Under the pieces are notes generated by a model. The model was not told the origin of the DNA and made no database searches. It was given only the letters and a program-made list of their open reading frames with translations. A program made the position numbers and the translations under genes. A stretch of 64,000 nt of DNA from assembly GCA_964491475.1 (NCBI GenBank), contig CAZBFO010000001.1, positions 263,538-327,537 on the forward strand, given 5' to 3'. Origin of the DNA: an uncultured Gammaproteobacteria bacterium. GTDB taxonomy: Bacteria; Patescibacteriota; Patescibacteriia; SG8-24. Positions 27,467 to 55,173 of the stretch are shown in pieces; the stretch's first letter is position 1; every line of letters begins with the position of its first letter.

Positions 27467-27540
27467 TGGCTGCGGGACTAGGACTCGAACCTAGATAAGC
27501 AGATTCAGAGTCTGCTGTCCTACCATTAGACGATCCCGCA
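27467..27540 (-). tRNA. tRNA-Gln (anticodon CUG)
   Basis: Hand-folded: 7-bp acceptor stem TGCGGGA/TCCCGCA, anticodon stem-loop GCAGA-CTCTGAA-TCTGC, T-arm CTAGG-TTCGAGT-CCTAG, discriminator G plus encoded CCA. Confidence 0.8.
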
Positions 27541-35937: not shown

Positions 35938-36002
35938 TCGGCCGGATTAACGCTGGTACCGTAGCACCGCGGTTTTTGAGGGTCAATGGCCCTGCGCGGA
36001 CG

Positions 36003-38564
36003 CTATTTGGCCTGCTGCGGGGCCGCCGGCATCGCCTTGAGCTGGGTGCGCTCCAGAATCTCCTGCTCCACGATGGCCCGGTCGCGACCGAATTTGAGTC
36101 GGGAGAGCTGCTTCAGCGCCTCGCCGATGCGCTTGTCGCCGCGGATGGGCATCGGCGCCTTGAAGTTGAACGGCCGGCTGGCTTGGCTGCTGATGAGCAG
36201 CTTGGAGTTCCAGCTGAACTTTTCCACGTTGGTGAGGTCGAGCGCCGAGAACACCGGCGCGAATTCCTTCTCGAGCACCTCGCCGTCCTCGATGCCGATG
36301 CGGCCGATGAGCATGTTGCCCACGTTGCCCAGCACGGCGTCACGGATTTCGGTGTCGCCCTTGGGCGCCAGCTGACCCATGTACTGGTGGGCGATGATCA
36401 GGCCCAGGCGGTACTTACGGGCTTCGGAAAGAATCGTGGCGATCGACGGCGTGATGAAGTTCTGGAACTCGTCGATGTACAGGAAGAAGTCCTTGCGATC
36501 CTTCTCCGGCATGTTGGCACGGCTCATTGCCGCCATCTGCAGCTTGGTGACGATGATCAGGCCGAGCAGGTTGGCATTGATGTCGCCGATCTTTCCCTTG
36601 GACAGGTTCACCAGGAAAATCTTGCGGTTGTCCATGACCTGACTGAAGTCAAAGGCCGACTTCTGCTGGCCGATGATGTTGCGCATCATGGCATTCTCCA
36701 CGAAGCGGCCCACCTTGGAGATGAGGTAGCCGAGCATTTCGGACTTGTGGAAGTCGGAAGTCTTGTCCATTTCGTTCTCCCAGAACGAGCGCACCACCGG
36801 GTCGGTGACCTTCTTGCGCCACTCCTTTTGGAAATCGGCATCGGAGACCAGGCGCGGAATCTCGGCGATGGTGCCGGGGTTGTCCTTGTCGCTCATCAGC
36901 GTGAGCATGTAGTTGCGCATCTGGTGCTCGAACATCGGGCCGATCATCTCGGCGCCGAACAGCTTGTAGAAGATGGCCACCATTTCGCCGCAGACGAAGT
37001 CCTTCATCTCGTCGCTGGGAGCCTCGATCATGTTCAGCGCCACGGGGCGATCCAAGTCGGACGGATCGAAGACGATGACGTCGTCGGCACGTTCCTTGGG
37101 GATGCAGCTCAAAACGTTTTCCACCAGATCGCCGTGCGGATCGATGACCGCCACGCCGTCGCCGCGCTTGATGTCCTGGACGATCAGGTTGGCGATGTAT
37201 TCCGACTTGCCGGAACCCGATTTGCCGATGATGTACATGTGACGCAGGCGGTCTTCGGTCTTGATGTACACCTGGGTCTTCTCGCCGCGGTACTCCACGA
37301 AGCCCAAATGCAGTCCGTCCTTGGGAAGGTTGGTCGGCGGCGGCGCCTTGCGCGAGGTCAGCCAGCGGATGTTCGGCGTTTCGGTGGACGACAGCGGGAA
37401 GTGGCACAGGCTGGCCATCTCCTCGCCGCTCATGATCATCCGTTTCTTCTCGTCGAAGTGGCGGAAGATGAAGTCCTTGATGATCTTGTTGCCGGCGGCG
37501 CCCTTGACGATCTGGTTGCCGTACTGCGGAATGCTGTACTGCGAGAAGGCGTTGATGATGTTGTTGAGGTAGTTGTTGGCGGCCATGGGGGTGGCGGCCG
37601 AAGCCACCACCCGGATGACCACGTCCAGGCCGTACTTGGCGGCCTTGTCGTCGATGGCCTTGACCATCTCCTCTTCGGCCGCGCTCATGCGGCGCATTTC
37701 CTTCTTGTCGTCCTTCTTGCTTGCGACCATCGCGCCTGCCGTGGACAGCAGACTCTTGCCGCTCATGGCCTCCTTGAGCGTCTTGCCTTCGTTCATGCCT
37801 TTCACCACGGACAGCGGCAGCGTCCGCCATTCCTTCTTGGCCGAGCGCACGATGATCTGGATGGCGGCACCGTCGGTCTTTTCGACTTTGGCCAGCGCGT
37901 TGGTAAGGCTGTTGAGCGGATCGGATTCCTGTTTCTTGTAGGTCTTGATGGGGAAGAAGTACTCGCGCTTGAAAATCATGCGTGCGCCCACCGCCGTACC
38001 CTGCGGCTTGAAGATGTCGTAGTCGGACACCGGCTCGATCTGCGCCAGCGGAAACTGACCATGTATTTGCTGCTCCACGAACTCCTTGAGGTGGTGCGGC
38101 GCGGCCACGTAGAACGACACCAGACCGTCCTTGGCGACCATCTCGAACGAGACATGGTCGGCACGACCGACCATCCAGGCCCTGAACCCGCGCTCGGCGG
38201 TCAGGCCGCCGATCGAGGCGTAGACGTTCTCCATGATGGCGATCTTCTCCTGGACCTGTTGCAAGGACTTTTCCTGCTGGCCGGATTCGCCCTTTTCGGA
38301 CTGTTCCTTGGGAACGGTCACCAGCATCACTTCCATCTTGAAGGCCACGTCGGACTGGTACTTGGCGCGCATGCGCGAACGCACGATCGCAAAGGCGATC
38401 CAGACGGCCAGAAGCGCGAACAGCGCCAGACCGACGAGGATGCCGGCGGGTCCGGTCGCGGACGACAACGCAGACGACGCATTGAGGTTTTTCACGAAGG
38501 CGAGTTGGAACAGCGCGAATGGCATGGGCGTCCGGTTAATCCTCGAAGACCCCGTCGGCGGCAC
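36003..38564 (-). CDS. membrane-anchored P-loop ATPase of the FtsK-HerA/VirB4 superfamily (TraC/VirB4- or TraG-like)
   Basis: N-terminal TM helix. Walker A IIGKSGSGKSEYIANLIV, Walker B FFLYIDEFQNF, arginine-finger-like ARKYRLGLIIAHQYMGQL (RKxxG...xQ pattern of HerA/VirB4). 853 aa. Confidence 0.6.
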   Translation of the reverse strand: MPPTGSSRINRTPMPFALFQLAFVKNLNASSALSSATGPAGILVGLALFALLAVWIAFAIVRSRMRAKYQSDVAFKMEVMLVTVPKEQSEKGESGQQEKSLQQVQEKIAIMENVYASIGGLTAERGFRAWMVGRADHVSFEMVAKDGLVSFYVAAPHHLKEFVEQQIHGQFPLAQIEPVSDYDIFKPQGTAVGARMIFKREYFFPIKTYKKQESDPLNSLTNALAKVEKTDGAAIQIIVRSAKKEWRTLPLSVVKGMNEGKTLKEAMSGKSLLSTAGAMVASKKDDKKEMRRMSAAEEEMVKAIDDKAAKYGLDVVIRVVASAATPMAANNYLNNIINAFSQYSIPQYGNQIVKGAAGNKIIKDFIFRHFDEKKRMIMSGEEMASLCHFPLSSTETPNIRWLTSRKAPPPTNLPKDGLHLGFVEYRGEKTQVYIKTEDRLRHMYIIGKSGSGKSEYIANLIVQDIKRGDGVAVIDPHGDLVENVLSCIPKERADDVIVFDPSDLDRPVALNMIEAPSDEMKDFVCGEMVAIFYKLFGAEMIGPMFEHQMRNYMLTLMSDKDNPGTIAEIPRLVSDADFQKEWRKKVTDPVVRSFWENEMDKTSDFHKSEMLGYLISKVGRFVENAMMRNIIGQQKSAFDFSQVMDNRKIFLVNLSKGKIGDINANLLGLIIVTKLQMAAMSRANMPEKDRKDFFLYIDEFQNFITPSIATILSEARKYRLGLIIAHQYMGQLAPKGDTEIRDAVLGNVGNMLIGRIGIEDGEVLEKEFAPVFSALDLTNVEKFSWNSKLLISSQASRPFNFKAPMPIRGDKRIGEALKQLSRLKFGRDRAIVEQEILERTQLKAMPAAPQQAK

Positions 38565-39048
38565 GGCGCTCCTTGACGATGGCCATGACGTTGTCGGTCT
38601 TGATCTTGCCTTCCTGCAGCAGAAACCACTGGTTAACGCGGGGAATGGTGCGGAGCCAGCGGACGATCACCGAATGGAAGGCGTTGGGGCGGGTCTTCTT
38701 CTGGTCGATCAGGGTGCGGACCTCCTCGGCTGCCTTTTCGCCTTCGGCGCGGAACTTGGCGCGAGCGTCCTTTGGCATGGCGTAGTACGCATCCCACAGG
38801 TTCTCTTCGAGCACGCGTTCCACTTTCATCCGCGTTTCGTCCTTGGTCACCGGTGCGGGGGCGGAAGCGGGCGCCGGGGCGGCCGCTGGCGTCGGAGCAG
38901 GCGTCTGGGAAGGCTCGGGTGCACGAACCTCGGCGCTCGGGCTGGGCGCCTCCCTGTTCGGCTCTGATTCCTTCGCGGTTTCCGGGGAACGCGGCGCCTC
39001 GGGCGGCTTTTCCATGCCCATTCCGGCTCCCATTTCGCCGTTCATCAT
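38536..39048 (-). CDS. hypothetical protein (Pro/Ala-rich N-terminal, globular C-terminal), overlaps start of the ATPase gene
   Basis: 170-aa ORF whose 3' end overlaps the ATPase start by about 29 nt, suggesting coupling. Confidence 0.5.
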   Translation of the reverse strand: MMNGEMGAGMGMEKPPEAPRSPETAKESEPNREAPSPSAEVRAPEPSQTPAPTPAAAPAPASAPAPVTKDETRMKVERVLEENLWDAYYAMPKDARAKFRAEGEKAAEEVRTLIDQKKTRPNAFHSVIVRWLRTIPRVNQWFLLQEGKIKTDNVMAIVKERRAADGVFED

Positions 39049-41668: not shown

Positions 41669-42322
41669 TCAAGGGGCTCGGAGGGCCTTTGGAGGCGAGT
41701 CGGACGGCTTCCCCGTCGTCATGAAAACGGGAACGCCGATGACGATGGCGCTTGCGGTGAACTGTTCCTTTTCCTTGATGTCCTCGCCGGACATGGCTTC
41801 GACGACGATTCCCGGACGAACGTCGGCAAGCGTCGCCTTCGTGTCGACATACGGCATGGGATGCGAACCGCGCCGACCCTTTGCGTCGTAGTCCTGCAGT
41901 TCCTTCATGAAAATTGAGGCATCCTTCTGCGTCCGCACCGCGAACGACGTCTTTGCGTCGACCATGACCGTCCTTTCCTCGGGTATCGACGAATATTCGC
42001 TCGGCCAAGATTCCACTTGCATGGCGAACGATGCGGCCCCGACGTTCATGACGTGTCCGGATACGGTGAGCAATGTCTTCGGCTCAAACGGGGAAGGTCC
42101 GCGGACGACCGGCGCAGCAGACGGTTCCCGTGCCGCATGCGGAGATGCCTCCTGGTGCGCCCGAAAGCTCCCGGTGTCCTTAGCATCCCCGACCGTCAAG
42201 GCGCGATCAGAGGGCGGTGCGCTGCGTCCGAAGGAGTAACCGATGAGCGTGCCTACGGCCATAGACGCGGCCACCAGTGCCAAAATCGAACCGGTCATGG
42301 ATTGTGGATGTCTTTCGCTCAT
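41669..42322 (-). CDS. membrane-anchored protein, member of a 4-copy paralog family (N-terminal TM, about 120-aa beta-rich possible OB-fold domain, Pro-rich tail)
   Basis: TM MSERHPQSMTGSILALVAASMAVGTLIG; core TLLTVSGHVMNVGAASFAMQV... similar to the cores of the 42412, 46759 and 50994 genes. Confidence 0.5.
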   Translation of the reverse strand: MSERHPQSMTGSILALVAASMAVGTLIGYSFGRSAPPSDRALTVGDAKDTGSFRAHQEASPHAAREPSAAPVVRGPSPFEPKTLLTVSGHVMNVGAASFAMQVESWPSEYSSIPEERTVMVDAKTSFAVRTQKDASIFMKELQDYDAKGRRGSHPMPYVDTKATLADVRPGIVVEAMSGEDIKEKEQFTASAIVIGVPVFMTTGKPSDSPPKALRAP

Positions 42323-42411: not shown

Positions 42412-43128
42412 TTAGCGCGGCGCCTGACCGCTTGGGACGACTACGGGCGGAATGGCCGCACCCGCAGACGGCGGGCCTACTGGCGCATCCGAAGGAGGCA
42501 GAGGGACCGTCGCTCGCTGCAAATCCGGAGGCGCGGCGTTCTTGTCCAAGGAAACGGTCGCGGCCGCGAACTTCGGCTGTGCCTTCACGTCGCCAGTGGT
42601 CTCAATCTGTACGTGCATGCCGACCTTCACGTCCCCGATGCTGCCAATTGCCGTTTCGAACTGGGAAGGAGGGGCTATGTCGGTAACCGGAGGCGTTGCG
42701 GAACCGGTCGGAGGCGCGAGCACAGGCTTCTTGAAAGCCTGCAGCTCCTTCGCTACTGCCGCAGGATCCCTGGGTGACCTGACGTTGATTTTCGTGTTGG
42801 CGTCGATGACGACCTCACGTGTCAATGGAACGTCAGTAACGAGAGGGTTCAGCACTTGGTCGTCGACAGTGACGGTAAAAGACGACTCCCCGACGTTCGT
42901 TACCGTACCCGTCAGATGGCGCAACTCCTTCGGTTCCGGAACCAGCACGCCCGACCGCTCAAGCTTGTCTTTAGCGGCGGCATATCCCTGACTGTAGCCA
43001 TCCGAAAGGAGTCCTTTTCCCGGCGCCGTCGAGGTCGTGCCGTACTTGCAGGCGGCGTAACCAATGACGAGACCGACGGTCAGCGCCACGGCGAAGATCG
43101 CCGGCACCAGACCAGACATTTTCTTCAT
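42412..43128 (-). CDS. membrane-anchored paralog-family protein (as 41669..42322) with long Pro-rich C-terminus
   Basis: MKKMSGLVPAIFAVALTVGLVIGYAA TM; core LTGTVTNVGESSFTVTVDDQ.... SD GGAGA 10 nt upstream of the chosen ATG; lies just downstream of giant gene 1. Confidence 0.5.
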   Translation of the reverse strand: MKKMSGLVPAIFAVALTVGLVIGYAACKYGTTSTAPGKGLLSDGYSQGYAAAKDKLERSGVLVPEPKELRHLTGTVTNVGESSFTVTVDDQVLNPLVTDVPLTREVVIDANTKINVRSPRDPAAVAKELQAFKKPVLAPPTGSATPPVTDIAPPSQFETAIGSIGDVKVGMHVQIETTGDVKAQPKFAAATVSLDKNAAPPDLQRATVPLPPSDAPVGPPSAGAAIPPVVVPSGQAPR

Positions 43129-43151
43129 GTTTGGCATGTCTCCCATAGGCG

Positions 43152-46100
43152 TCATAGCTGATTGCAATACACGTACTGTCCACCGCTCCATACCTGCGTC
43201 ACGAAGTAGCCGTTGGGGCAAGCGCAGGAATTGCCCGGTGCGCAGTACACCCAACCGTAACCGGCACCGTCACTGTTGCCCGAGGCAACCAGGTCGTAGT
43301 AGACGGTCGCGCCCCATGAGGTGATGCCGCCATAGGCATAAATGTTACCGCTCGCCGACATCCAACTGGAAGAGGAGAGCGTACTCACACTCGTGGCGCC
43401 GGCGCTAAGACTGCCGGAAATGGACGCGTTACCGCTGTTGTTGAGCGTGCCGGATCCAAGGAAGGAATACGGACCGCTTCCGTAGACGCCGGCGTAGGTT
43501 CCCGTGCCGTAGACGCCATACGAACCGCCATTGCCGTACACGCCGTAGGTGCCGCCAGAACCCTGACCGTAAACGCCCGTGGAAGTACCTGAACCGATGA
43601 CGCCGTAGAATCCGGAACCCTGCACGCCGTAAGTTTGGCCGGTTCCCGAAACGCCGATACCTCCCCCCGCATTGACGGTGCCCTGAACGCCGATCCAGCT
43701 GCTCGTACCGAACAAACCGTAATTTGAACCGCTGCCGTAGACGCCGTAGGTGCCGCCAGTGCCGTTGACGCCGTATGATCCGCCGTTGCCCGCGACGCCC
43801 GTGGTGGAACCGACGCCCGCGACGCCATAGGAACCGTTACCGTAGAGGCCGTAATTTCCTCCTTGTCCCCAGACGCCGTAGGTGTTACCGCTGCCATACA
43901 TGCCGGTGCCGATACCGGTGCCGTACACGCCAAAAGTGCCGTTACCGTACACGCCGTAGGTGCCGCCGTTGCCGTAGACGCCGTAGGTGCCGGAAGAGCT
44001 GAAGCTGCCACCGGTCGTAGAACCGCTTCCATAGACACCTTGTGTTCCGCCAGCGAACCAGCCGCCCCAATTAGGTCCGGTACCGTAGACGCCGATACCC
44101 GCACCGCCCGTCGAAGTACCGGAGACGCCGTAGCTGGGACCTTCGCCATAGACGCCATAGGCGCTGCCGTAACCGCGAACGCCCATGTTGCTGCTGGGAG
44201 AGACGCCCGCGCCGAGATTGGACTGGACGTAAGCGTCACCGAGCACCATCAGCTTTTGGCCCGATGCCGAGCCGCCGATGCCGACGGTCGTGCCGTTATC
44301 GACGATCTGCGAATTGCCTATGCTCGAGGCGGCAGTGAACTTCGGTACGTAGTTGGCGGTGCCGCTGCCCGTCACGCCTGCCACATTCGTGTCCGTAATC
44401 GTGACCGCGCCGGTCGAGCCGGAGAGGCTGATGCCCGAACCGGCCGTGAGCGACGTCACGCCCGTGTTCGAGAAGGTCACCGCGCCGGTAGCGCCGGACA
44501 CGCCGATGCCGGTGCCGGCCGTGGCGGAGGTGACGCCGGTGTTGGAAACGACGACCGCGCCCGTGGTGGGAGCGACGGAAATGCCAGATCCGGATCCGGA
44601 GACGGAAGTGACCGGCGCAGAGGCAGCTGTCGTCCAAGTGCCGTTGCCGGAAGCGTCAGAAGTGAGCACCTTGCCCGCGCCAGCGCCCGTGGCCATCAGG
44701 AAGCCGGTCATCTTGGCGGTGCCGTTGACGTCGAGTTTCTGCGTCGGGACGGCGACGCCGAGACCGAGGTTGCCGGACAAGTAGCTCTGGCCGCCGGCAG
44801 AATAGAGGGCGTACTTGTTGGTGCCGACGCCGATGGAGTCGATGTAGATGCCGTAGTTATTGGTGAGGGTTCCGGACGGCGTACCGCTCTGGTAAACGCG
44901 CAAGCCGTAGGCGTTGGTGACGTTGGCGGGGTTGCCGAAGTACAGGTTCGAGTACATGCCGTACAGGTTGGTGATGGTACCTGAACCGCCGTTCGAGGCG
45001 GCACCGTAAACGCCGGCCATGTCCGTCACCGCGCCGGAGCCGCTGCGGTACACTTCGCCGTTGACCGCGTAGGCGGACTGCGTCGTTCCGCTATGACCGA
45101 CGACCACGTTGGCCTCGATGCCGCTCAACCAGCTGGTGAAGTTGGTCGCTCCGGCAGAGCTGGTATCGACGTCGGCGTAAATGGCATCGAACCAGCTGGC
45201 CGGGCTGGCCGACGGAACCGGCTTGATGATGTTGGACATGCCCAGGCCGATGTTGCCGGTCAGGTTCTCCGAGATGTTCGTGACGTAATTGGTGCTGGTG
45301 CTCGCGGTCGCGCCGAAGGCCGAATGGCCGGCGACGGTCAGCTTGCCGCTGGTGGAAGTGTCGCCAGCCGAGGTGACCTTGAACTGCGAGGTGGGACCGA
45401 CGGAGAGCAGGGCGGTAGGCGCGGCATTGCCGATACCGACGTTGGTGCCGTCATCGAACACCAGCGAATTGCCGATGGCGCTGGCAGAGGTGAACTTGGC
45501 GTGGTAATTGGTGGTGCCGCTGCCCGTGATGCCGGACTGCGTGGTCCAGGTGCCGTTGCCGGAGGCATCGGAAACCAGCACCTTGCCCGCGCCCGCGCCG
45601 GTCGTCAGCTGCAAGCCGGTCATCTTGGCGGTGCCGTTGACATCAAGAAGAGTGCCCGGTGTCGAGGTGCCGATGCCGACGTAGCCGTTTTGATCGATCC
45701 TGACGCGCTCGGCGCGGGTCGTCGAGCCGTTGGGGGTGGTTTCAAGCGTGAGCAAGGTGCCATGCGCGGCATCGGTCTGATTTTCCGCAGCGCGGATGAT
45801 GAAGGCGCCGTTGCTCAATGACGAGAACCCCGTGGTGCCATAGGCCCGGCCGCTGAAGAACGCCAGGGCGTCACCGGACTGCGCGGCGGTAGGCGCGGCG
45901 GTGGTTCCACGCGCGCGGCGTCCCGTGAAGTTCGAGGCAACCGCCGAGCCGTAGGAGTCGACGTTCGCCGCCACGGGGTCGACGGTGCCGACGATGTTCA
46001 GGCTGCCGGTCGGCGTAGAAGTACCGATGCCCAAGCTGCCGTACAAGCCCATGTACATGCTGGTGCCGCCCGAACCCCAGTTGCCGACGTTCAGCGTGGT

Positions 46101-46607
46101 CACGCCGGAGCCGTCGACGCGGATGGCCTTGCCGCTGGAGAGGTAGGCGTCGCCGCCGCTCGACTTGAGGTCGCCAGTGACGCTGATGTAGCCGGTCTGC
46201 GCGGACGACGGGCTGATGAGGACGTAAGGGTTGTCGCAGGTGTCGGCGCAGACGTTCCAGGTGCTGCCGGTGGGGCAGGTGCGGTTAGTGACGCAAGAGC
46301 CGGAGCTGGAACATTGCGTCGTGCCTGACGGGCACACGCAGCTCAACGACGAGCAGTCATACACCTGCGTGGACGAAGTGCACGGACGAGAATCCGATTG
46401 GCACGAGGCGTCAGACGCCCGGTACAGCAGGCCGCCGAAGCAGGTGGTGCCGCCGCCCGAGGTGGGACAGGCGCAGGAGGCCTGCGTGGAGTTGTAGGGG
46501 CAGGTCTGGGCGGATGCGGCAACGGGCAGCAAGGTCGAACCAGCTGCGATGAGCAAAGAAGCAACGACACTAACGAAGACTGCGGCTCGAGAACGGGCCA
46601 TACGCAT
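43152..46607 (-). CDS. giant secreted fibre-like protein 1: Cys-rich N-domain, tail-fibre-like GIGTxxP...LDVNG modules, Gly/Tyr nonapeptide array, Cys-containing C-terminal cap
   Basis: 1151 aa. Signal peptide MRMARSRAAVFVSVVASLLIAAGSTLLPVAASA; about 16 Cys in residues 35-125. Repeated VGIGTSTPGTLLDVNGTAKMTG-type motifs and an about 200-aa run of xYGVYGxGx. C-terminus YCAPGNSCACPNGYFVTQVWSGGQYVYCNQL. Paralog of the 47405..49816 gene. Confidence 0.75.
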   Translation of the reverse strand: MRMARSRAAVFVSVVASLLIAAGSTLLPVAASAQTCPYNSTQASCACPTSGGGTTCFGGLLYRASDASCQSDSRPCTSSTQVYDCSSLSCVCPSGTTQCSSSGSCVTNRTCPTGSTWNVCADTCDNPYVLISPSSAQTGYISVTGDLKSSGGDAYLSSGKAIRVDGSGVTTLNVGNWGSGGTSMYMGLYGSLGIGTSTPTGSLNIVGTVDPVAANVDSYGSAVASNFTGRRARGTTAAPTAAQSGDALAFFSGRAYGTTGFSSLSNGAFIIRAAENQTDAAHGTLLTLETTPNGSTTRAERVRIDQNGYVGIGTSTPGTLLDVNGTAKMTGLQLTTGAGAGKVLVSDASGNGTWTTQSGITGSGTTNYHAKFTSASAIGNSLVFDDGTNVGIGNAAPTALLSVGPTSQFKVTSAGDTSTSGKLTVAGHSAFGATASTSTNYVTNISENLTGNIGLGMSNIIKPVPSASPASWFDAIYADVDTSSAGATNFTSWLSGIEANVVVGHSGTTQSAYAVNGEVYRSGSGAVTDMAGVYGAASNGGSGTITNLYGMYSNLYFGNPANVTNAYGLRVYQSGTPSGTLTNNYGIYIDSIGVGTNKYALYSAGGQSYLSGNLGLGVAVPTQKLDVNGTAKMTGFLMATGAGAGKVLTSDASGNGTWTTAASAPVTSVSGSGSGISVAPTTGAVVVSNTGVTSATAGTGIGVSGATGAVTFSNTGVTSLTAGSGISLSGSTGAVTITDTNVAGVTGSGTANYVPKFTAASSIGNSQIVDNGTTVGIGGSASGQKLMVLGDAYVQSNLGAGVSPSSNMGVRGYGSAYGVYGEGPSYGVSGTSTGGAGIGVYGTGPNWGGWFAGGTQGVYGSGSTTGGSFSSSGTYGVYGNGGTYGVYGNGTFGVYGTGIGTGMYGSGNTYGVWGQGGNYGLYGNGSYGVAGVGSTTGVAGNGGSYGVNGTGGTYGVYGSGSNYGLFGTSSWIGVQGTVNAGGGIGVSGTGQTYGVQGSGFYGVIGSGTSTGVYGQGSGGTYGVYGNGGSYGVYGTGTYAGVYGSGPYSFLGSGTLNNSGNASISGSLSAGATSVSTLSSSSWMSASGNIYAYGGITSWGATVYYDLVASGNSDGAGYGWVYCAPGNSCACPNGYFVTQVWSGGQYVYCNQL

Positions 46608-46758: not shown

Positions 46759-47364
46759 ATGCCGACCGGCCAGAACCAGTTTAGCGGCTCCCGATCGCCA
46801 GTGATCACCATGGTAACCATGACGGCCTTCGCTTTGGCGGTCGGTATCGGCATCGGTTTCTCTTGGGGCAAGCGTGCTGCAAAGCGAGTCGGCGCAGAAT
46901 CCCCTGCCGGCACGCAGCAAGCACGGGGTCCGTCCTCGCGGACACCGTTGCCGCCGTCGGTCATGGTCACGTTGGTCGGCACTGTCGAGACGGTTTCGTC
47001 CGATTCGTTCACGATGGAAGCGCAGCGTCCGCCGTTCCCGGGAACGTGGTTGGCAGAGCGCAAAGTGCGCGTCGACAAGTCCACCGCTTTCGTTCGCATG
47101 CAGCCAAAAGACGCCGAACAGTCAGCCAAGGACGCGGAAGCATACGTCACGGCGCAAAACCGGCACCCCGCATCTGGGAGCAAGCGGCCCACCCCGTACA
47201 CGGAGACGCCCGCAAAGTTCAGCGAGATACGGACCGGAACGCTCGTGGTGGTGTACGCCTCTCCCGAAGTGCACCTCGAGGACGCCGCGGAGTTCACCGC
47301 CACGCGCATCGAAACCGGCCCTCCGCCCACGACGCCTACGAACCCGCCGAAACCGAAAGGATGA
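46759..47364 (+). CDS. membrane-anchored paralog-family protein (as 41669..42322)
   Basis: TM ITMVTMTAFALAVGIGIGFSW; core TLVGTVETVSSDSFTMEA...; Pro/Thr-rich tail; convergent with giant gene 2. Confidence 0.5.
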   Translation: MPTGQNQFSGSRSPVITMVTMTAFALAVGIGIGFSWGKRAAKRVGAESPAGTQQARGPSSRTPLPPSVMVTLVGTVETVSSDSFTMEAQRPPFPGTWLAERKVRVDKSTAFVRMQPKDAEQSAKDAEAYVTAQNRHPASGSKRPTPYTETPAKFSEIRTGTLVVVYASPEVHLEDAAEFTATRIETGPPPTTPTNPPKPKG

Positions 47365-47404: not shown

Positions 47405-49816
47405 TTACAGGCGCGAGCAATAGATCCAGGTGTTCGTTCCCCAGGACGCCCAGTACGGGTTCGACCCGTACACGCCGACCATGAACATGCCGTTCGGGCA
47501 GACGCAGTAGGAGCTGGTGCACTGGTAGTACTGGTTGGTTCCCCAGGAATTTCCTTCGGCCGCCAGGTCGTAGAAGATGTTCGCGCCCCAGGAAGTCAGG
47601 CCGTTGTAGGCGGTGATGGCGTTGCCGGAAATGTTGCCGTTGATCGACATGTTGCCGTTGTTGGTGATGATGCCGCTGCCGCTGAACGCGTACCAGTTGG
47701 TGCCGATCGAGGCGCTGGTCGGGTTGGAACAGCCGGTGCAGTAAAAGTAGCCGCCCGTCGAACCGACGCCCTGTACGCCGATGCTGTTGCCGTTGCCGTA
47801 CACGCCGACGCTGCTGCCGCTTCCGTAGACGCCGGTCGGACCGTTGCCGTTCACGCCATAGGTGGTGCCGTTGCCCTGGACGCCGTACGAGCCTCCCGCG
47901 CCGATGACGCCGTAATTGGAACCGTAGGAGTAGATGCCGGTCGGACCGCCGTAGCTGCGGATGCCGTAGCTGCTACCGGTAGTGTAGACGCCGTCAGTGC
48001 CGCCGGTGGTGTAGACGCCGTCGGTGGAGCCCTGGGCGTAGACGCCGTACGTGGAACCGTCGCCACGCAGGCCGATCTGGCCGGTGCCATAGCCGCCATA
48101 CAGGGTACCGACCGCGTTGATGCCCGTGTAGCCGTGGGTGTCGATGCCGGTATTGGGCGAAGTCACGTAGACGCCGGTGCCTGAACCAGTGGCGGAGAAG
48201 TAGCCGCCGTAGGTCGCGCCCGTCGCCGCCAAGCCGGTGCTCGAAAGCGACGAGAAGCTGCCGCCGTAGCTCGACTGGCTGTATCCCGTGACGCCGAAGC
48301 CGGAGTTCGAAGTGCCGTACACGCCCGAAGTGGCGTTGGCGCTGCCGCCGTATACGCCGTAGGTGGTGCCGTTACCGTACACGCCGTACGAACCCGCCGC
48401 GTACACGCCAAAGGAAGGGTTGGGCGTCATGCCGCCGAAGCCGGCAGTGCCGGTCGCGCGCAGGTTACCGGTGACATCCAGCGGATAAGCCGGGGCCGCG
48501 TTGGCCACGCCGACGTACGAGCCGTTGTCGTAGATGAGCGAGTTGCCGATCGACGTGGAAGCGGTGAACTTCGGCACGTAGTTGGTGGTGCCGCTGCCGC
48601 TGATGCCAGCCGGAACCGTATTGGAAATGGTCACCGAGCCCGTCGAGCCCGACAGGCTGATGCCCGAGCCGGCGGCGAGCGAGGTCACGCCGGTGTTCGA
48701 GAAGGTCACCGCACCGGTGCCGCTCGATACGCCGATGCCGGTACCGGCCGCAGCAGAAGTCACGCCGGTATTGGAGACGACGACAGCGCCAGTGGTCGGG
48801 CTCACCGAAATGCCCGCGCCAGAACCGGAGACCGAGGTGACCGGGGCGCTGTAAGTGGCCCACGTGCCGTTGCCGGAAGCGTCAGAAGTGAGCAACTTTC
48901 CGGCGCCAGCGCCCGTGGCCATCAGGAAGCCGGTCATCTTGGCAGTGCCGTTGACGTCGAGCTTCTGGGCCGGCGTGGTGGTGCCGACGCCGAGGTTGCC
49001 GCTACCCTGCATCAACGACAGCAGCGTCAGGCCATTGATGTTGTCGCGGAAGTACAGGTCATTGGTGCTGCTGTTGCGCAGGCCGACGCTCCATTGGGTC
49101 GTTCCGGCGGTGTCGAAGGAGAGCGAAGCAAAATCGGTGGCAGGTGCCTCGCGACGAATGGTCAAGGATGTGGTGCCGCCGTTAGCGATCTTCACGTTGC
49201 CCTGCACGTCCAGCTTGGCAGAAGGTGTCGAGGTGCCCAGACCCAGGTTGCCGTACACGCCCATGTTGAGACCGGTCGCACCGGACCCCCAATTGCCCAC
49301 GTTCAGCGTGGTCACGCCGGAGCCGTCGACGCGGATGGCCTTGCCGCTGGAAAGGTAGGCGTCGCCGCCGCTCGACTTGAGGTCGCCGGTCACGTTGATG
49401 AAGCCGGTCTGCACCGAGGACGGGCTGATCAGCACATAGGGATTGTCGCAAGTGTCGGTGCAGACGTTCCAGGTGCTTCCTGCCGGGCAGGTGCGATTGG
49501 TGACGCAAGCCCCCGAGCTGGAACAGAGCGTGGTGCCAGAAGGGCAGACGCAGCTCAAAGTGGAGCAGTCATACACCTGGGCGGAAGAGCCGCAGGGGCG
49601 CGAGTCCGCGCGGCAGGACGAATCCGAAGCGCGGTACAGCAGGCCGCCGAAACAGGTGGTGCCGCCGCCCGAGGTGGGGCAGGCGCAGGAGGCCTGCGTG
49701 GAGTTGTAAGGGCAGGTCTGGGCGGATGCCATCCCGGCAATCGTCAACGAAGAAAAGACGAAGGCTACCGTGGCCGCGAACTTGCCGAACCGTAACCGCT
49801 GCTGCCGCATGCTCAT
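47405..49816 (-). CDS. giant secreted fibre-like protein 2 (paralog of 43152..46607)
   Basis: 803 aa. N-terminal 180 aa about 90 percent identical to giant 1, shared internal segment (KLDVNGTAKMTGFLMATGAGAGK...NYVPKFTA), divergent Gly/Tyr repeat array, C-terminal YCVCPNGMF...WIYCSRL. Confidence 0.75.
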   Translation of the reverse strand: MSMRQQRLRFGKFAATVAFVFSSLTIAGMASAQTCPYNSTQASCACPTSGGGTTCFGGLLYRASDSSCRADSRPCGSSAQVYDCSTLSCVCPSGTTLCSSSGACVTNRTCPAGSTWNVCTDTCDNPYVLISPSSVQTGFINVTGDLKSSGGDAYLSSGKAIRVDGSGVTTLNVGNWGSGATGLNMGVYGNLGLGTSTPSAKLDVQGNVKIANGGTTSLTIRREAPATDFASLSFDTAGTTQWSVGLRNSSTNDLYFRDNINGLTLLSLMQGSGNLGVGTTTPAQKLDVNGTAKMTGFLMATGAGAGKLLTSDASGNGTWATYSAPVTSVSGSGAGISVSPTTGAVVVSNTGVTSAAAGTGIGVSSGTGAVTFSNTGVTSLAAGSGISLSGSTGSVTISNTVPAGISGSGTTNYVPKFTASTSIGNSLIYDNGSYVGVANAAPAYPLDVTGNLRATGTAGFGGMTPNPSFGVYAAGSYGVYGNGTTYGVYGGSANATSGVYGTSNSGFGVTGYSQSSYGGSFSSLSSTGLAATGATYGGYFSATGSGTGVYVTSPNTGIDTHGYTGINAVGTLYGGYGTGQIGLRGDGSTYGVYAQGSTDGVYTTGGTDGVYTTGSSYGIRSYGGPTGIYSYGSNYGVIGAGGSYGVQGNGTTYGVNGNGPTGVYGSGSSVGVYGNGNSIGVQGVGSTGGYFYCTGCSNPTSASIGTNWYAFSGSGIITNNGNMSINGNISGNAITAYNGLTSWGANIFYDLAAEGNSWGTNQYYQCTSSYCVCPNGMFMVGVYGSNPYWASWGTNTWIYCSRL

Positions 49817-53365: not shown

Positions 53366-53437
53366 AATCCTATTTGTAGCTATATATAGCCAAAAAAATC
53401 GCCCTATTGCGGACGATTTTCAGGCTAAATCATGTTT

Positions 53438-54493
53438 TTATATATCCCACGATTCCAGCGCCTTGCGCTGCTCCTTGGTCAGCTTCTTGGGAATCACCAC
53501 CGTGACGTGCACCAAGTGGTCCCCGCGCCCGCTGCGCTTCAGGTGCGGCACGCCCTTGCCCTTGAGCCGGAACACCGCGTCCGGCTGCGTCGCCGCAGGA
53601 ATGGTCAGCTCGACTTTGCCGTCGACAGTTTCGACAGTCTCAATGCCTCCGAGCGTCGCACGAGCAATGCCGATTTCCAGCTCGCTGTTCACGTCAAATC
53701 CTTCGCGAACAAAGCGCGGATCGCGCTTAATGCGCATGGCCAAGTACAAATCACCGGAACGGCCGCCATGCGGAGCAGCTTCGCCTTCGCCGCCAACGCG
53801 CAGCACTTCACCGTCGTTGATGCCGGCGGGAATTTTCACGCTGAAGTTCCGCTCGCCCTTGGTAATCCCTTCGCCGTGACACTTCTTGCACGGCTTTTCG
53901 GGAATGGTGCCAGCGCCGTCGCAGCGCGAGCAGATTGCCGCCGTGGCGAAACTGCCCAAAATGGTCTGCTGAATCTTGCGGACCTGTCCCGTACCCGAGC
54001 ACTGCACGCAGTCCACGCGCTTGGAGCCGGCCGCCGCGCCGCTGCCCTCGCACTCGTTGCAAGTGATGGCGCGATGCACCTTCACGTCCTTGTCCGCGCC
54101 GAAAGCGGCCTCGGTGAAGGACAGGTGCATGTCCATCTGGATGTTGCGCCCCGATTCCGGCTCGCGTCGGCCGCGTCCCCCACCGCCGAACATCTCGCCG
54201 AAGATGTCGCCAAAGTCCATGTTGACGCCGCCCTGTCCGAACCCGCCGAATCCCCCACCGCCGAAGCCGCCTTGGTTCATCTGCTCGAACTGCGGCCCGA
54301 ACTGGTCGTACTTGGCGCGCTTGTCGGCGTCGCTGAGCACTTGGTAGGCGGAGTTGATCTCCTTGAACTTCTCGGCGTTGCCCGTCGGCTTGTCCGGATG
54401 GTATTCGTGGGCGAGTTTGCGAAAAGCCTTCTTGATGTCGTCATCAGAAGCGCCTTTGCTCACGCCGAGAATGTCGTAGTAGTCGCGGGCCAT
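53438..54493 (-). CDS. dnaJ: chaperone DnaJ
   Basis: J-domain HPD (YHPDKP), G/F-rich linker, four CxxCxGxG zinc-finger repeats, C-terminal domain. Confidence 0.9.
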
Positions 54494-54502
54494 GTGGTGA
54501 CG

Positions 54503-54826
54503 TTAGGCGGCGTTGTTGTTGTCCACTTCCGAAACGAAATCCGAATCCGGGAAGGCGTATTCCAGCACGTCCTGGTAGCGCATGCCCACGAAGGTGGCCG
54601 GGGCGACGGTGGCGGCCTCGAGCAGCACGTCGTGCGCCATGAGCGGGTTCGGCGCAGTCGGCGCGACCGAAATCGCCGCCGTGGCACCGTTGCCGAAACC
54701 GAAAGTGAGCGTCAGCCCGTGTTCGCCCTGCGCGTCGCTGACGGTGGTCACCGTTTCGTCATGCAGGCTCTCGTGCGTGGCGCCCGTGACGGTTTCTGCG
54801 AAGCTTGTGCGGTCGTTGAGGTACAT
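54503..54826 (-). CDS. hypothetical protein (107 aa, acidic)
   Basis: ORF with good GC3 between dnaJ and the next gene; no motif. Confidence 0.45.
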   Translation of the reverse strand: MYLNDRTSFAETVTGATHESLHDETVTTVSDAQGEHGLTLTFGFGNGATAAISVAPTAPNPLMAHDVLLEAATVAPATFVGMRYQDVLEYAFPDSDFVSEVDNNNAA

Positions 54827-54882
54827 AGTGTTTGTTGGTGGTTGAGTTTGGAGTATTGGGTTGCGAGCGTGAGCGTATGCCG

Positions 54883-55173
54883 CTACTTGGTAGCGTATCC
54901 GATTTCCGCCGGAGCTTCGGAAGCCGTAACCGCGCCGTGCTGCGCTTCGTAGCGTCGCACCACGTCGGTGAGCACCGCCGCTAACCGCTTGGCGTGGCCC
55001 GGCGAGAGGATCACGCGAGCGTTGAGCATGGTCACCGGAGGAAGCTGGTTCATGAAGTCGATGACGAACTCCTCCTTTTGGAACTGGACTTGGGCGGAGT
55101 TGGAGTAGACACCGCGGAGGGCTACATCGTCGGCTTTGACTTGCATCTGGTTTTGGTTGGGTTGGGGGTTCAT
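54883..55173 (-). CDS. hypothetical small protein (96 aa)
   Basis: ORF with good codon bias inside the dnaK-dnaJ operon. Confidence 0.5.
   Translation of the reverse strand: MNPQPNQNQMQVKADDVALRGVYSNSAQVQFQKEEFVIDFMNQLPPVTMLNARVILSPGHAKRLAAVLTDVVRRYEAQHGAVTASEAPAEIGYATK

What the first reader, a model, noticed from the sequence alone, without database searches (positions are those of the whole stretch)
43637..44237. Gly/Tyr nonapeptide array (xYGVYGxGx, about 25 copies) - candidate beta-solenoid of unknown type
Giant protein 1, residues about 790-990, is a near-perfect 9-residue periodic array. It has an invariant aromatic and glycines at fixed phase (SAYGVYGEG PSYGVSGTS ... GTYGVYGNG GTYGVYGNG TFGVYGTGI ...). 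The array is encoded by 27-nt periodic DNA.

Giant 2 (about 47746-48451) has a related but diverged array (TYGVYGGSA..., DGVYTTGGT DGVYTTGSS YGIRSYGGP).

The composition resembles silk or antifreeze-like flat beta-solenoids. I know of no characterised bacterial domain with this repeat.
Basis: seen in the sequence. Interest (0 to 1): 0.55.

Follow-up and report, generated by a model that had tools for sequence, protein, structure and literature searches.

The report
Gly/Tyr nonapeptide shaft of surface fibres
The 9-residue Gly/Tyr/Val repeat is real; it is most likely the rod-like shaft of two three-chain surface fibres, related to phage tail fibres, made by a tiny "candidate phyla radiation" bacterium, and this widespread repeat has no family model or solved structure.

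Summary
Protein P1 (43152..46607, minus strand, 1151 aa) carries 25 units of xxYGVxGxG at residues 806-1045. Its tandem paralogue P2 (47405..49816, minus strand, 803 aa) carries a diverged, interrupted copy. Lag-9 autocorrelation gives z = 9.0 for P1 and 6.6 for P2.

The array matches nothing in Pfam, NCBIfam or PDB sequences. It is not unique, though. At least 150 protein clusters from Patescibacteria, Bacteroidota and a few phage contigs carry the same unit, with consensus x-x-[Y/T]-G-V-x-G-x-[G/S/A] and spacings of 9 (55%), 8, 10 and 12 residues. In 42 of them a Peptidase_S74 intramolecular chaperone follows 21-100 residues downstream. That chaperone is known to fold trimeric triple beta-helices.

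P1 and P2 are secreted fibre proteins of a high-GC Patescibacteria chromosome. P1 residues 223-334 align to the trimeric beta-helix of the Bdellovibrio fibre Bd1334 (PDB 8OML, E = 3e-14).

The best reading is a trimeric beta-helical shaft, probably intertwined, with a V-x-G corner like phage T4 gp5C. It would hold out a small Cys-rich tip. The fold is inferred, not shown: AlphaFold2 monomer models are low-confidence. Collagen, RTX and polyglycine-II readings fail sequence tests. I rate it a new variant of a known kind, of moderate interest.

The parts
43152..46607 (-). Fibre protein P1, 1151 aa. In order: signal peptide, Cys-rich N-terminal domain, beta-helix modules with capping loops, 25-aa repeats, nonapeptide array, Cys-containing tip.
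   Evidence: ORF and translation. 341 homologues were found, many named 'tail fiber domain-containing'. No Pfam or NCBIfam hit.
43473..44192 (-). Nonapeptide array of P1, residues 806-1045: 25 units of x-x-[Y]-G-V-x-G-x-G.
   Evidence: Unit listing. Lag-9 z = 9.0 and DNA lag-27 identity 0.47. 27-nt periods from Tandem Repeats Finder.
43155..43472 (-). C-terminal tip of P1, residues 1046-1151. It ends in the motif C-x5-C-x-C-P-N-G-...-Y-C-N-Q-L.
   Evidence: Shared with P2 (E = 2.5e-13) and with the extreme C-termini of P0011, P0013 and P0023. The last ~35 residues have pLDDT 77-79 and short strands.
45606..45941 (-). Beta-helix module of P1, residues 223-334, homologous to the Bdellovibrio Bd1334 fibre. 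It includes the capping loop VGIGTSTPGTLLDV.
   Evidence: phmmer against PDB: 8oml_A E = 3.1e-14 and 8on4_A E = 3.9e-12. The identity of those entries comes from PMC10769870. Motif positions.
45996..46607 (-). Signal peptide (residues 1-33) and Cys-rich N-terminal domain (residues 34-204) of P1.
   Evidence: Read from the translation. Invariant Cys columns in alignment A1. BLASTP to Patescibacteria proteins P0022 (3e-40) and P0017 (8e-32), but not to Pseudobdellovibrio fibres.
44403..44561 (-). 25-residue repeats (NTGVTS.AG.GI.(V/L)SG.TGAVT...) upstream of the array in P1.
   Evidence: Tandem Repeats Finder: period 75 nt, 2.1 copies, score 190. About 85-90% identical to the equivalent stretch of P2.
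47405..49816 (-). Fibre protein P2, 803 aa, a tandem paralogue of P1. It has the same N-terminal domain and central modules, and lacks the ~275-residue insert of P1.
47747..48415 (-). Diverged, interrupted nonapeptide array of P2, residues 468-690: about 17 clear units and about 6 degenerate ones.
   Evidence: Unit listing. Lag-9 z = 6.6.
47408..47746 (-). C-terminal tip of P2, residues 691-803, with the same terminal Cys motif (..YCVCPNG...IYCSRL).

Best explanation
P1 and P2 are secreted homotrimeric surface fibres of a Patescibacteria (CPR) cell. They are built like phage tail fibres and the Bdellovibrio 'mosaic adhesive trimer' fibres. An N-terminal Cys-rich domain sits at the cell-proximal end. 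Modular beta-helical shaft segments follow, and a small disulfide-containing tip sits at the far end.

The nonapeptide array is the distal shaft. In each unit, residues 2-6 (x-[Y/T]-G-V-x) would form a short beta-strand. V5 and the residue two before it (Y/T/I/V) would point into the core. V5-x6-G7 would make the corner, as V-x-G does in T4 gp5C. Residues x8-[G/S/A]9-x1 would form a turn of variable length.

Three chains would wind around each other into a triangular prism (a triple-stranded beta-helix). Each unit would add one strand, about 4.8 A, so the 25 units of P1 would give a rigid, uncharged, Tyr-studded rod about 12 nm long. The rod would present the tip domain to a target, most plausibly the surface of the host cell on which such episymbionts live.

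**Shown:** the repeat, its spread across proteins, its domain contexts, the homology of P1 to a solved trimeric fibre, and the organism.

**Inferred:** that P1 and P2 are trimers, the intertwined fold, which residues face inward, the length, and the adhesive role.
For: 1. **P1 is a fibre protein.** Residues 223-334 align to the trimeric beta-helix of Bd1334 (8OML, E = 3e-14). The capping-loop motif V-G-G/N-pi-x-x-P-x-x-x-L of those fibres occurs 4 times in P1 and 3 times in P2.
2. **The same unit lies upstream of a trimerising chaperone.** It occurs in 152 of 170 retrieved proteins. In 42 of them a Peptidase_S74 domain starts 21-100 residues after the last unit. [quoted passage not shown]
3. 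**Other family members swap in unrelated tips.** Different C-terminal domains follow the array, as expected of a shaft module.
4. **Phage proteins carry it too.** A tail-fibre ORF on viral contig L008 has the array followed by a chaperone-like C-terminus. Its N-terminus matches an annotated phage tail fibre protein. PHROG tail-fibre profiles align across the array of P0149.
5. **Position-specific conservation over 1550 units fits a strand plus corner.**
   - V5 is 83% Val and 100% aliphatic.
   - Position 9 is 94% small and 1% charged.
   - Position 3 is 65% hydrophobic or aromatic and 5% charged.
   - Charges concentrate at positions 8 (17%), 6 (11%), 2 (9%) and 1 (8%).
   - This gives two inward residues one apart, as in the MyRF and endoNF stalks, and a V-x-G kink as in gp5C (PMC3004832).
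6. **Unit length varies.** Spacings of 8, 9, 10 and 12 fit variable turns on a beta-helix.
7. **AlphaFold2 places strands at the repeat period.** Monomer models put 3-4-residue strands on V-x-G-x every 9 residues, at low confidence (pLDDT 53-58). Part of the P1 array has pLDDT 66-75 with no intrachain strand pairing. Both are what an obligate intertwined trimer would give when modelled as a monomer.
8. **The setting is a CPR chromosome.** The DnaK gene in the window is 75-89% identical to Parcubacteria, Uhrbacteria and Patescibacteria DnaK. The neighbours are housekeeping genes, not phage genes.
Against: - No structure supports the fold. Both AlphaFold2 models are low-confidence over the array. 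Foldseek found nothing for it in PDB or BFVD.
- Trimer modelling could not be run.
- P1 and P2 have no S74 chaperone. The folding argument therefore transfers from relatives, not from these proteins.
- The period is 9, not the 8 of gp5C, so the V-x-G analogy rests on a three-residue motif.
- Identity between units is slightly higher at a lag of 2 units (0.415) than at 1 (0.37). This is a weak hint of a two-unit super-period that a single-chain beta-roll would predict.
- Position 6 is as aromatic as position 3, so which residues face inward is not settled.
- The adhesive function and the host target are pure inference.
Confidence: 0.55

Rival explanations
1. Single-chain beta-solenoid or beta-roll. 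Each chain folds on its own, with two or three nonapeptides per coil. If the protein is a trimer, three such rods pack side by side, as in the YadA head.
For: - AlphaFold2 monomer models do pair the period-9 strands within one chain over part of the array.
- Identity between units is marginally higher at a lag of 2 units than at 1 (0.415 against 0.37).
- Nonapeptides form two-per-turn beta-rolls in RTX proteins (my own knowledge).
- Relatives carry YadA-head repeats elsewhere in the protein (PF05658 in P0013, P0021 and P0109).
Against: - Confidence is low (pLDDT 53-58). In my experience AlphaFold2 normally models regular single-chain solenoids well.
- The array sits where S74-dependent intertwined helices sit in solved relatives.
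- There is no clear super-period. The lag 2 to 5 identities of 0.415, 0.40, 0.395 and 0.38 decay smoothly.
- There is no Foldseek match to any solenoid.
Confidence: 0.22
2. Flexible or weakly ordered Gly/Ser/Tyr-rich spacer. It would be low-complexity and possibly self-associating like [G/S]Y[G/S] regions, giving the tip reach rather than rigidity.
For: - The array is 38% Gly, nearly uncharged and Tyr-rich.
- Array pLDDT is about 55 in two independent models.
Against: - Phase is kept strictly over 1550 units in very diverged proteins: V5 at 83%, position 9 small at 94%.
- DNA lag-27 identity is only 0.47. The repeat is therefore kept at the protein level and is not a recent slippage product.
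- Folded fibre modules lie on both sides of it.
- An S74 quality-control domain lies next to it in relatives.
Confidence: 0.1
3. Polyproline-II-type assembly. This would be either a collagen-like triple helix (Gly-X-Y) or a polyglycine-II lattice like the glycine-rich domains of phage S16 gp38 and Pam3 gp24.
For: - In the ideal unit G-T-Y-G-V-Y-G-N-G, Gly falls at every third residue.
- HMMER's only PDB hits are collagens, at E = 0.06-0.3.
- Gly content is 38%, similar to the 39% of the Pam3 gp24 domain.
- Relatives carry true collagen repeats elsewhere in the protein (PF01391).
Against: - The longest uninterrupted G-X-Y run is 8 triplets in P1 and 5 in P2, and the P1 array has only 2 Pro.
- Position 1 is Gly in only 32-34% of family units.
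- 29% of unit spacings are 8 or 10 residues, which breaks the triplet frame.
- There is no -GGGGxGG- motif.
- Bulky Val and Tyr occupy two of the three faces of any PPII helix.
- The collagen-like G-V-x-G arrays that are common on viral contigs differ visibly from this unit.
Confidence: 0.04

Closest known systems
Bdellovibrio bacteriovorus mosaic adhesive trimer (MAT) fibres, e.g. Bd1334 (PDB 8OML/8ON4), NS74 subgroup (Caulton et al. 2024, PMC10769870)
   Same: - Both are secreted, long, modular fibre proteins.
- P1 residues 223-334 are homologous to the Bd1334 trimeric beta-helix (E = 3e-14).
- The capping-loop motif recurs in P1 and P2.
- The C-terminal tips are variable, and there is no S74 domain.
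- Several paralogues occur per genome, with swapped modules.
   Different: - The N-terminal domain is a Cys-rich, Patescibacteria-specific one. It shows no similarity to Pseudobdellovibrio fibre N-termini.
- No nonapeptide array is described in that paper.
- The organism is a CPR bacterium, not a predator.
Peptidase_S74 (intramolecular chaperone) tail-fibre and tailspike proteins: K1F endosialidase stalk (3GW6), GA-1 gp12 (3GUD), MyRF stalk (7DC3)
   Same: - In 42 relatives the array occupies the position directly upstream of S74, where the solved proteins have a triple beta-helix.
- The two-residue (i, i+2) hydrophobic pattern matches those stalks.
   Different: - P1 and P2 themselves lack S74.
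- The solved stalks are short and irregular and are not Gly/Tyr nonapeptides.
- There is no detectable sequence similarity.
Phage T4 gp5C triple-stranded beta-helix (VXGXXXXX octapeptide)
   Same: - Both are long, regular arrays of short units.
- Both have a conserved V-x-G in which Val points inward and Gly kinks the chain (PMC3004832).
- Here V5-x6-G7 is the most conserved part of the unit.
   Different: - The unit is 9 residues with variable turns, not 8.
- It has extra conserved Gly4 and a small residue at position 9, and it is Tyr-rich and uncharged.
- It lies in a fibre shaft rather than a membrane-piercing needle.
- The fold here is not demonstrated.
RTX nonapeptide beta-roll (GGxGxDxUx)
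   Same: Both are 9-residue, Gly-rich tandem repeats with one conserved aliphatic residue.
   Different: - The P1 array has no Asp at all, so it cannot bind calcium in the RTX way.
- The Gly phase differs (G-x-G-x-x-Y against G-G-x-G-x-D).
- There is no Pfam HemolysinCabind hit.
Glycine-rich (polyglycine-II) receptor-binding domains of phage S16 gp38 and Pam3 gp24
   Same: Both are tail-fibre-associated, and both are about 38-39% Gly.
   Different: - Those domains use -GGGGxGG- motifs in a compact lattice at the fibre tip.
- This array has conserved Val and Tyr, no poly-Gly runs, and a shaft position.

Membership tests
Bdellovibrio-type MAT fibre proteins (Caulton 2024) | Beta-helical fibre modules with the capping-loop motif V-G-G/N-pi-x-x-P-x-x-x-L | tested here: met
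   P1 residues 223-334 against 8oml_A, E = 3.1e-14. The motif occurs at P1 residues 192, 310, 390 and 614 and at P2 residues 191, 275 and 435.
Bdellovibrio-type MAT fibre proteins (Caulton 2024) | Conserved ~130-aa beta-rich domain directly after the signal peptide | tested here: not met
   The P1 N-terminus (residues 1-225) aligns only to Patescibacteria proteins (P0022 at 3e-40, P0017 at 8e-32). It shows no N-terminal similarity to the Pseudobdellovibrio fibres P0080 and P0061, which I used as proxies. The Bd HD100 sequences themselves were not available.
Bdellovibrio-type MAT fibre proteins (Caulton 2024) | Homotrimeric assembly displayed on the cell surface | not testable with these tools
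Peptidase_S74-terminated tail-fibre-domain proteins | C-terminal S74 intramolecular chaperone with the S-D-x-x-x-K dyad | tested here: not met
   Pfam gave 0 families for P1 and P2. The feature is met in 42 array-bearing relatives and in the P0157 model.
gp5C-type triple-stranded beta-helix | Tandem short units with a conserved V-x-G corner | tested here: met
   V5-x6-G7 is present in all 25 units of P1 (V, L, M or W at position 5). Across the family, position 5 is 83% Val (the two Gly positions are fixed by the anchor pattern used to find units). The unit is 9 residues here, not 8.
gp5C-type triple-stranded beta-helix | Three chains intertwined so that each face alternates strands from different chains | not testable with these tools
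   Only monomer AlphaFold2 was available, and the array pLDDT was 53-75.
RTX calcium-binding beta-roll (PF00353) | GGxGxDxUx with a conserved Asp | tested here: not met
   The P1 array has 0 Asp in 240 residues. There is no Pfam hit.
Collagen-like triple helix (PF01391) | Long uninterrupted Gly-X-Y runs, usually rich in Pro | tested here: not met
   The longest run is 8 triplets in P1 and 5 in P2, with 2 Pro in the P1 array. Position 1 is Gly in 32% of units. 29% of spacings are 8 or 10 residues. There is no Pfam hit.
Polyglycine-II glycine-rich domain (S16 gp38 / Pam3 gp24) | Glycine-rich motifs such as -GGGGxGG- stacked in a lattice | tested here: not met
   The array has no run of four Gly. 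Val and Tyr are conserved in every unit.

The most novel reading that the evidence does not exclude
The Y-G-V-x-G-x-G nonapeptide array is a fibre-shaft fold not yet seen in any solved structure. One possibility is a nine-residue-per-side triple beta-helix with a stacked Tyr/Val core and an uncharged aromatic surface. Another is a different trimeric solenoid. Patescibacteria, which depend on attaching to host cells, would have recruited it into a lineage-specific family of mosaic adhesive fibres. That family has its own Cys-rich anchor and swappable tips, and the fibres would mediate episymbiont-host recognition.
Probability: 0.25. Interest if true: 0.65.

Novelty: new variant of a known kind. 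Interest (0 to 1): 0.42.

Why it matters
- **An annotation gap.** A repeat present in at least 150 protein clusters has no Pfam or NCBIfam model and no solved structure. The clusters span Patescibacteria, Bacteroidota type IX secretion substrates and some phage tail fibres. A family model plus one trimer structure would annotate many 'hypothetical' surface proteins. It would also add a regular, uncharged, Tyr-rich rod to the set of fibre building blocks.
- **A lead on CPR host attachment.** How CPR/Patescibacteria cells recognise and hold on to their hosts is largely unknown. This window shows two tandem, module-shuffled fibre genes of the kind Bdellovibrio uses to recognise prey. That gives concrete candidates for attachment proteins in this lineage. 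Relatives have the same anchor but four different tips.

Tried and rejected
- **Family libraries.** Pfam, NCBIfam and PHROGs gave nothing on the arrays of P1 and P2.
- **PDB by sequence.** A search with the array and a search with a 41-sequence, five-unit profile gave only insignificant collagen, L3 and kinesin noise.
- **Structure prediction and fold search.**
  - AlphaFold2 monomer of P1 residues 790-1151 had mean pLDDT 54.6. Foldseek on it found nothing in PDB or BFVD.
  - AlphaFold2 of the S74-bearing relative P0157 was confident only in the S74 domain. Foldseek matched only S74/ICA domains.
- **Cultured phages.** tblastn of the array against INPHARED phages found no match; the low-complexity filter may have contributed.
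- **Viral contig scans.**
  - P0149 against viral contigs found nothing.
  - A loose four-unit G-V-x-G DNA pattern found at least 120 viral loci. Nearly all were collagen-like G-X-Y repeats. Only L094, and perhaps L114, resembled this unit.
  - A strict pattern found one locus, L008.
- **Source record.** The exact-sequence look-up of P1's contig failed, and the cluster look-up gave no names.
- **Literature.** A text search for YGVYG-type strings found nothing relevant.
- **Readings rejected.** Collagen, RTX and PGII were rejected on sequence tests.
- **Spurious ORFs.** The large plus-strand ORFs at 35976..38576 and 53432..54952 are antisense artefacts of high GC content.
Full report
**1. The observation**

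The finding lies on the minus strand inside ORF 43152..46607, called P1 here (1151 aa). Its coordinates correspond to residues 791-991. Splitting the sequence at each G-[VLI]-x-G core gives 25 units between residues 806 and 1045 (nt 43473..44192). Sixteen units are exact 9-mers, four are 8-mers, and the others are 10, 11, 12, 12 and 19 residues. The array therefore extends about 165 nt beyond the stated end, and 'near-perfect' is slightly generous.

Lag-9 identity is 0.381 against 0.189 +/- 0.021 in composition-preserving shuffles (z = 9.0; 0 of 2000 shuffles reached it). DNA lag-27 identity is 0.47 against 0.32 in a control stretch of the same gene. Tandem Repeats Finder reports several 27-nt periods.

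The second ORF, P2 (47405..49816, minus strand, 803 aa), has a related array at residues 468-690 with z = 6.6. A degenerate insert interrupts it.

The P1 array is 38% Gly and 12% Tyr. Its 240 residues hold no Asp, one Glu, no Lys, one Arg and two Pro. DNA identity between units is low, so the repeat is maintained at the protein level. It is not a recent slippage product.

**2. What the proteins are**

P1 and P2 have signal peptides followed by a domain with many invariant Cys. They match no Pfam or NCBIfam family.

Against PDB sequences, P1 residues 223-334 match 8oml_A and 8on4_A (E = 3e-14 and 4e-12). These entries are the tip region of Bd1334, one of the trimeric 'mosaic adhesive trimer' fibres of Bdellovibrio. 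The matched part is its intertwined beta-helix (PMC10769870).

That paper's capping-loop motif, V-G-G/N-pi-x-x-P-x-x-x-L, occurs four times in P1 and three times in P2, for example as VGIGTSTPGTLL.

A homologue search returned 341 proteins. Many are named 'tail fiber domain-containing' and carry Peptidase_S74. P1 and P2 are about 90% identical in their N-terminal 200 residues and in a central block of 25-residue repeats. Their arrays and tips have diverged, and P1 has an extra ~275 residues.

**3. Organism and neighbourhood**

The window has 58-66% G+C. It encodes DnaK, DnaJ, DnaX, CysS, CorA, a uracil-DNA glycosylase and a VirD4/TraG-like ATPase. No phage structural genes are present.

The named relatives of its DnaK, at 75-89% identity, are Parcubacteria, Uhrbacteria, Kerfeldbacteria, Magasanikbacteria and 'Patescibacteria group'. 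The source is therefore a high-GC CPR/Patescibacteria chromosome.

A genome scan with the family alignment found seven loci. MAGs labelled Binatia or Gammaproteobacteria among them have DnaK proteins 78-86% identical to this one, on the same contigs. They probably belong to the same clade.

The loci with G+C similar to the window (L001-L005) carry fibre genes with the same N-terminal domain. Those genes occur with or without the array and have at least four different C-terminal tips. Two of the loci hold two such genes.

The N-terminal domain aligns to Patescibacteria proteins (3e-40 and 8e-32). It does not align to Pseudobdellovibrio fibres.

**4. The array elsewhere**

Searching with the array alone gave 60 hits in the word-indexed database. 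It gave 129 cluster representatives at E <= 1e-3 among 1.84 billion proteins.

Of 170 retrieved proteins, 152 have at least four units. Spacings are 9 (55%), 8 (14%), 10 (15%) and 12 (10%). Over 1550 units the profile by position is:

| Position | Main residues | Note |
|---|---|---|
| 1 | G 32%, S 17%, T 12%, N 9% | |
| 2 | S, T, N | |
| 3 | Y 42%, T 16%, I 7%, V 5% | 65% hydrophobic or aromatic, 5% charged |
| 4 | G | fixed by the anchor pattern |
| 5 | V 83%, L 8%, I 7% | |
| 6 | Y 48% | 11% charged |
| 7 | G | fixed by the anchor pattern |
| 8 | variable | 17% charged |
| 9 | G 61%, S 18%, A 13% | 94% small |

Forty-two of these proteins have a Peptidase_S74 domain starting 21-100 residues after the last unit. 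Several of them also end in a type IX secretion sorting domain. Others carry unrelated conserved C-terminal domains.

Forty-three have a capping-loop-like motif, and in 25 of them it lies within 80 residues upstream of the array.

A 619-aa ORF on viral contig L008 has the array followed by a chaperone-like C-terminus. Its N-terminus matches an annotated phage tail fibre protein. PHROG tail-fibre profiles align across the array of P0149.

The array is rare in viruses, however. There was no hit in cultured phages. A loose DNA pattern in IMG/VR recovered mostly collagen-like G-X-Y repeats, with only one or two further true examples.

**5. Fold**

No solved structure resembles the array by sequence.

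The AlphaFold2 monomer model of P1 residues 790-1151 has mean pLDDT 54.6. Short strands fall on V-x-G every 9 residues in part of the array. A stretch with pLDDT 66-75 (P1 residues ~989-1059) has no intrachain strand pairing.

The model of P0157 is confident only in its S74 domain. Its array has pLDDT 53-58, again with V-x-G-x strands every 9 residues. Foldseek matched only S74/ICA structures: 7DC3, 3GUD and 3GW6. Trimer modelling was not possible.

The fold therefore has to be inferred from four points:

- S74/ICA domains trimerise and fold the triple beta-helix immediately upstream of them. They then cleave themselves off, leaving an SDS-resistant trimer (PMC8326128; PMC10769870). The array sits at that position in 42 relatives.
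- In those stalks the core is made of two residues per strand, one residue apart. Positions 3 and 5 of the unit fit this pattern.
- In T4 gp5C, VXGXXXXX units form a triple-stranded helix in which Val points inward and x-Gly makes the corner (PMC3004832). V5-x6-G7 is the conserved heart of the present unit.
- Variable unit length fits variable turns.

With one strand (about 4.8 A) per unit, 25 units would give a rod of about 12 nm. This length is an inference.

**6. Alternatives**

- **Single-chain beta-roll or solenoid.** This remains possible. Unit identity at lags 1 to 5 is 0.37, 0.415, 0.40, 0.395 and 0.38. That is a weak and inconclusive hint of a two-unit period.
- **Collagen.** This fails. 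The longest G-X-Y run is 8 triplets, position 1 is Gly in only a third of units, and 29% of spacings are not multiples of three.
- **RTX.** This fails, because the array has no Asp.
- **Polyglycine-II domains.** Those of gp38 and Pam3 gp24 use -GGGGxGG- motifs, which are absent here.
- **Pure disorder.** This is unlikely given the strict phase conservation across very diverged proteins.

**7. Verdict**

The 'flat silk/antifreeze-like solenoid' part does not.

The array is best read as the distal shaft module of trimeric, tail-fibre-like surface fibres of a CPR bacterium. It belongs to a widespread but unmodelled repeat class. I rate it a new variant of a known kind (beta-helical fibre shafts), with moderate interest. 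The main open question, the actual fold, is directly testable.

Noticed in passing
window 41669..42322 (-), ~42412..43131 (-), 46759..47364 (+): Three paralogous small proteins flank the two fibre genes. Each has one N-terminal transmembrane helix, and they share a motif (L-x-G-x-V-x-x-V-...-SF-...-ER-x-V-x-VD-x-x-T-x-F-x-VR-...-KD-...-KE-x-Q). None has a Pfam family above threshold. They could be fibre-associated accessory or anchoring proteins.
   Followed up: partly
window 43155..43260 (P1 C-terminus) and 47408..47510 (P2 C-terminus); also P0011, P0013, P0023: The fibres share an extreme C-terminal motif, C-x-C-P-x-G-...-(I/V)-Y-C-x-x-L, at the very end. In P0013 and P0023 it lies after the S74 cleavage domain. 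It echoes the C-A-C-P-T-S-G and C-V-C-P-S-G motifs of the N-terminal domain. The role is unknown; it could be a tip, a sorting signal, or contact between the two ends.
   Followed up: partly
window 44403..44561 (-) and the equivalent part of P2: A second repeat type lies upstream of the array. It has 25-residue units, NTGVTS-x-x-AG-x-GI-x-(V/L)-SG-x-TGAVT (75-nt period, Tandem Repeats Finder score 190). It is nearly identical between P1 and P2.
   Followed up: no
window ~44780..45600 (-), P1 residues ~335-610: P1 has a ~275-residue insert that P2 lacks. It includes a looser Tyr/Gly-containing repeat of about 20 residues (..AGVYGAASNGGSGTITNLYGMYSNLYFGNPANVTNAYGLRVYQSG..NNYGIYIDSIG..). P0023 has a similar region.
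   Followed up: no
L001 and L004 (DATJFD01, labelled 'Candidatus Binatia'); L003 and L007 (labelled 'uncultured Gammaproteobacteria'): These MAGs are labelled Binatia or Gammaproteobacteria. They carry the CPR-type fibre genes, and three of the four contigs (those of L001, L004 and L007) also hold a DnaK 78-86% identical to this Patescibacteria DnaK. The taxonomic labels are probably wrong.
   Followed up: partly
L001 and L004 (two fibre genes each), L002, L003, L005: Related CPR genomes keep the same N-terminal anchor domain. They swap shaft modules, with or without the array, and have at least four different C-terminal tips. These end in ..YCYGL, ..CARVN, ..CFKYR, or an S74 domain plus coiled coil. 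This suggests module shuffling for target specificity.
   Followed up: partly
window 36003..38564 (-): An 853-aa VirD4/TraG-like coupling ATPase (T4SS-DNA_transf, TrwB, TraG-D_C) lies about 5 kb from the fibre genes. The large plus-strand ORF over the same DNA is an antisense artefact.
   Followed up: no
IMG/VR loci L009-L128: Very many viral contigs carry long collagen-like G-V-x-G-x-x-G-x-x arrays, for example GVQGIQG and GATGVTG, some with more than 100 units. These are a different, Gly-every-third repeat, and simple pattern searches confuse them with the nonapeptide.
   Followed up: partly
window 27470..27540 (-): A single tRNA gene is the only Rfam match in the window.
   Followed up: no
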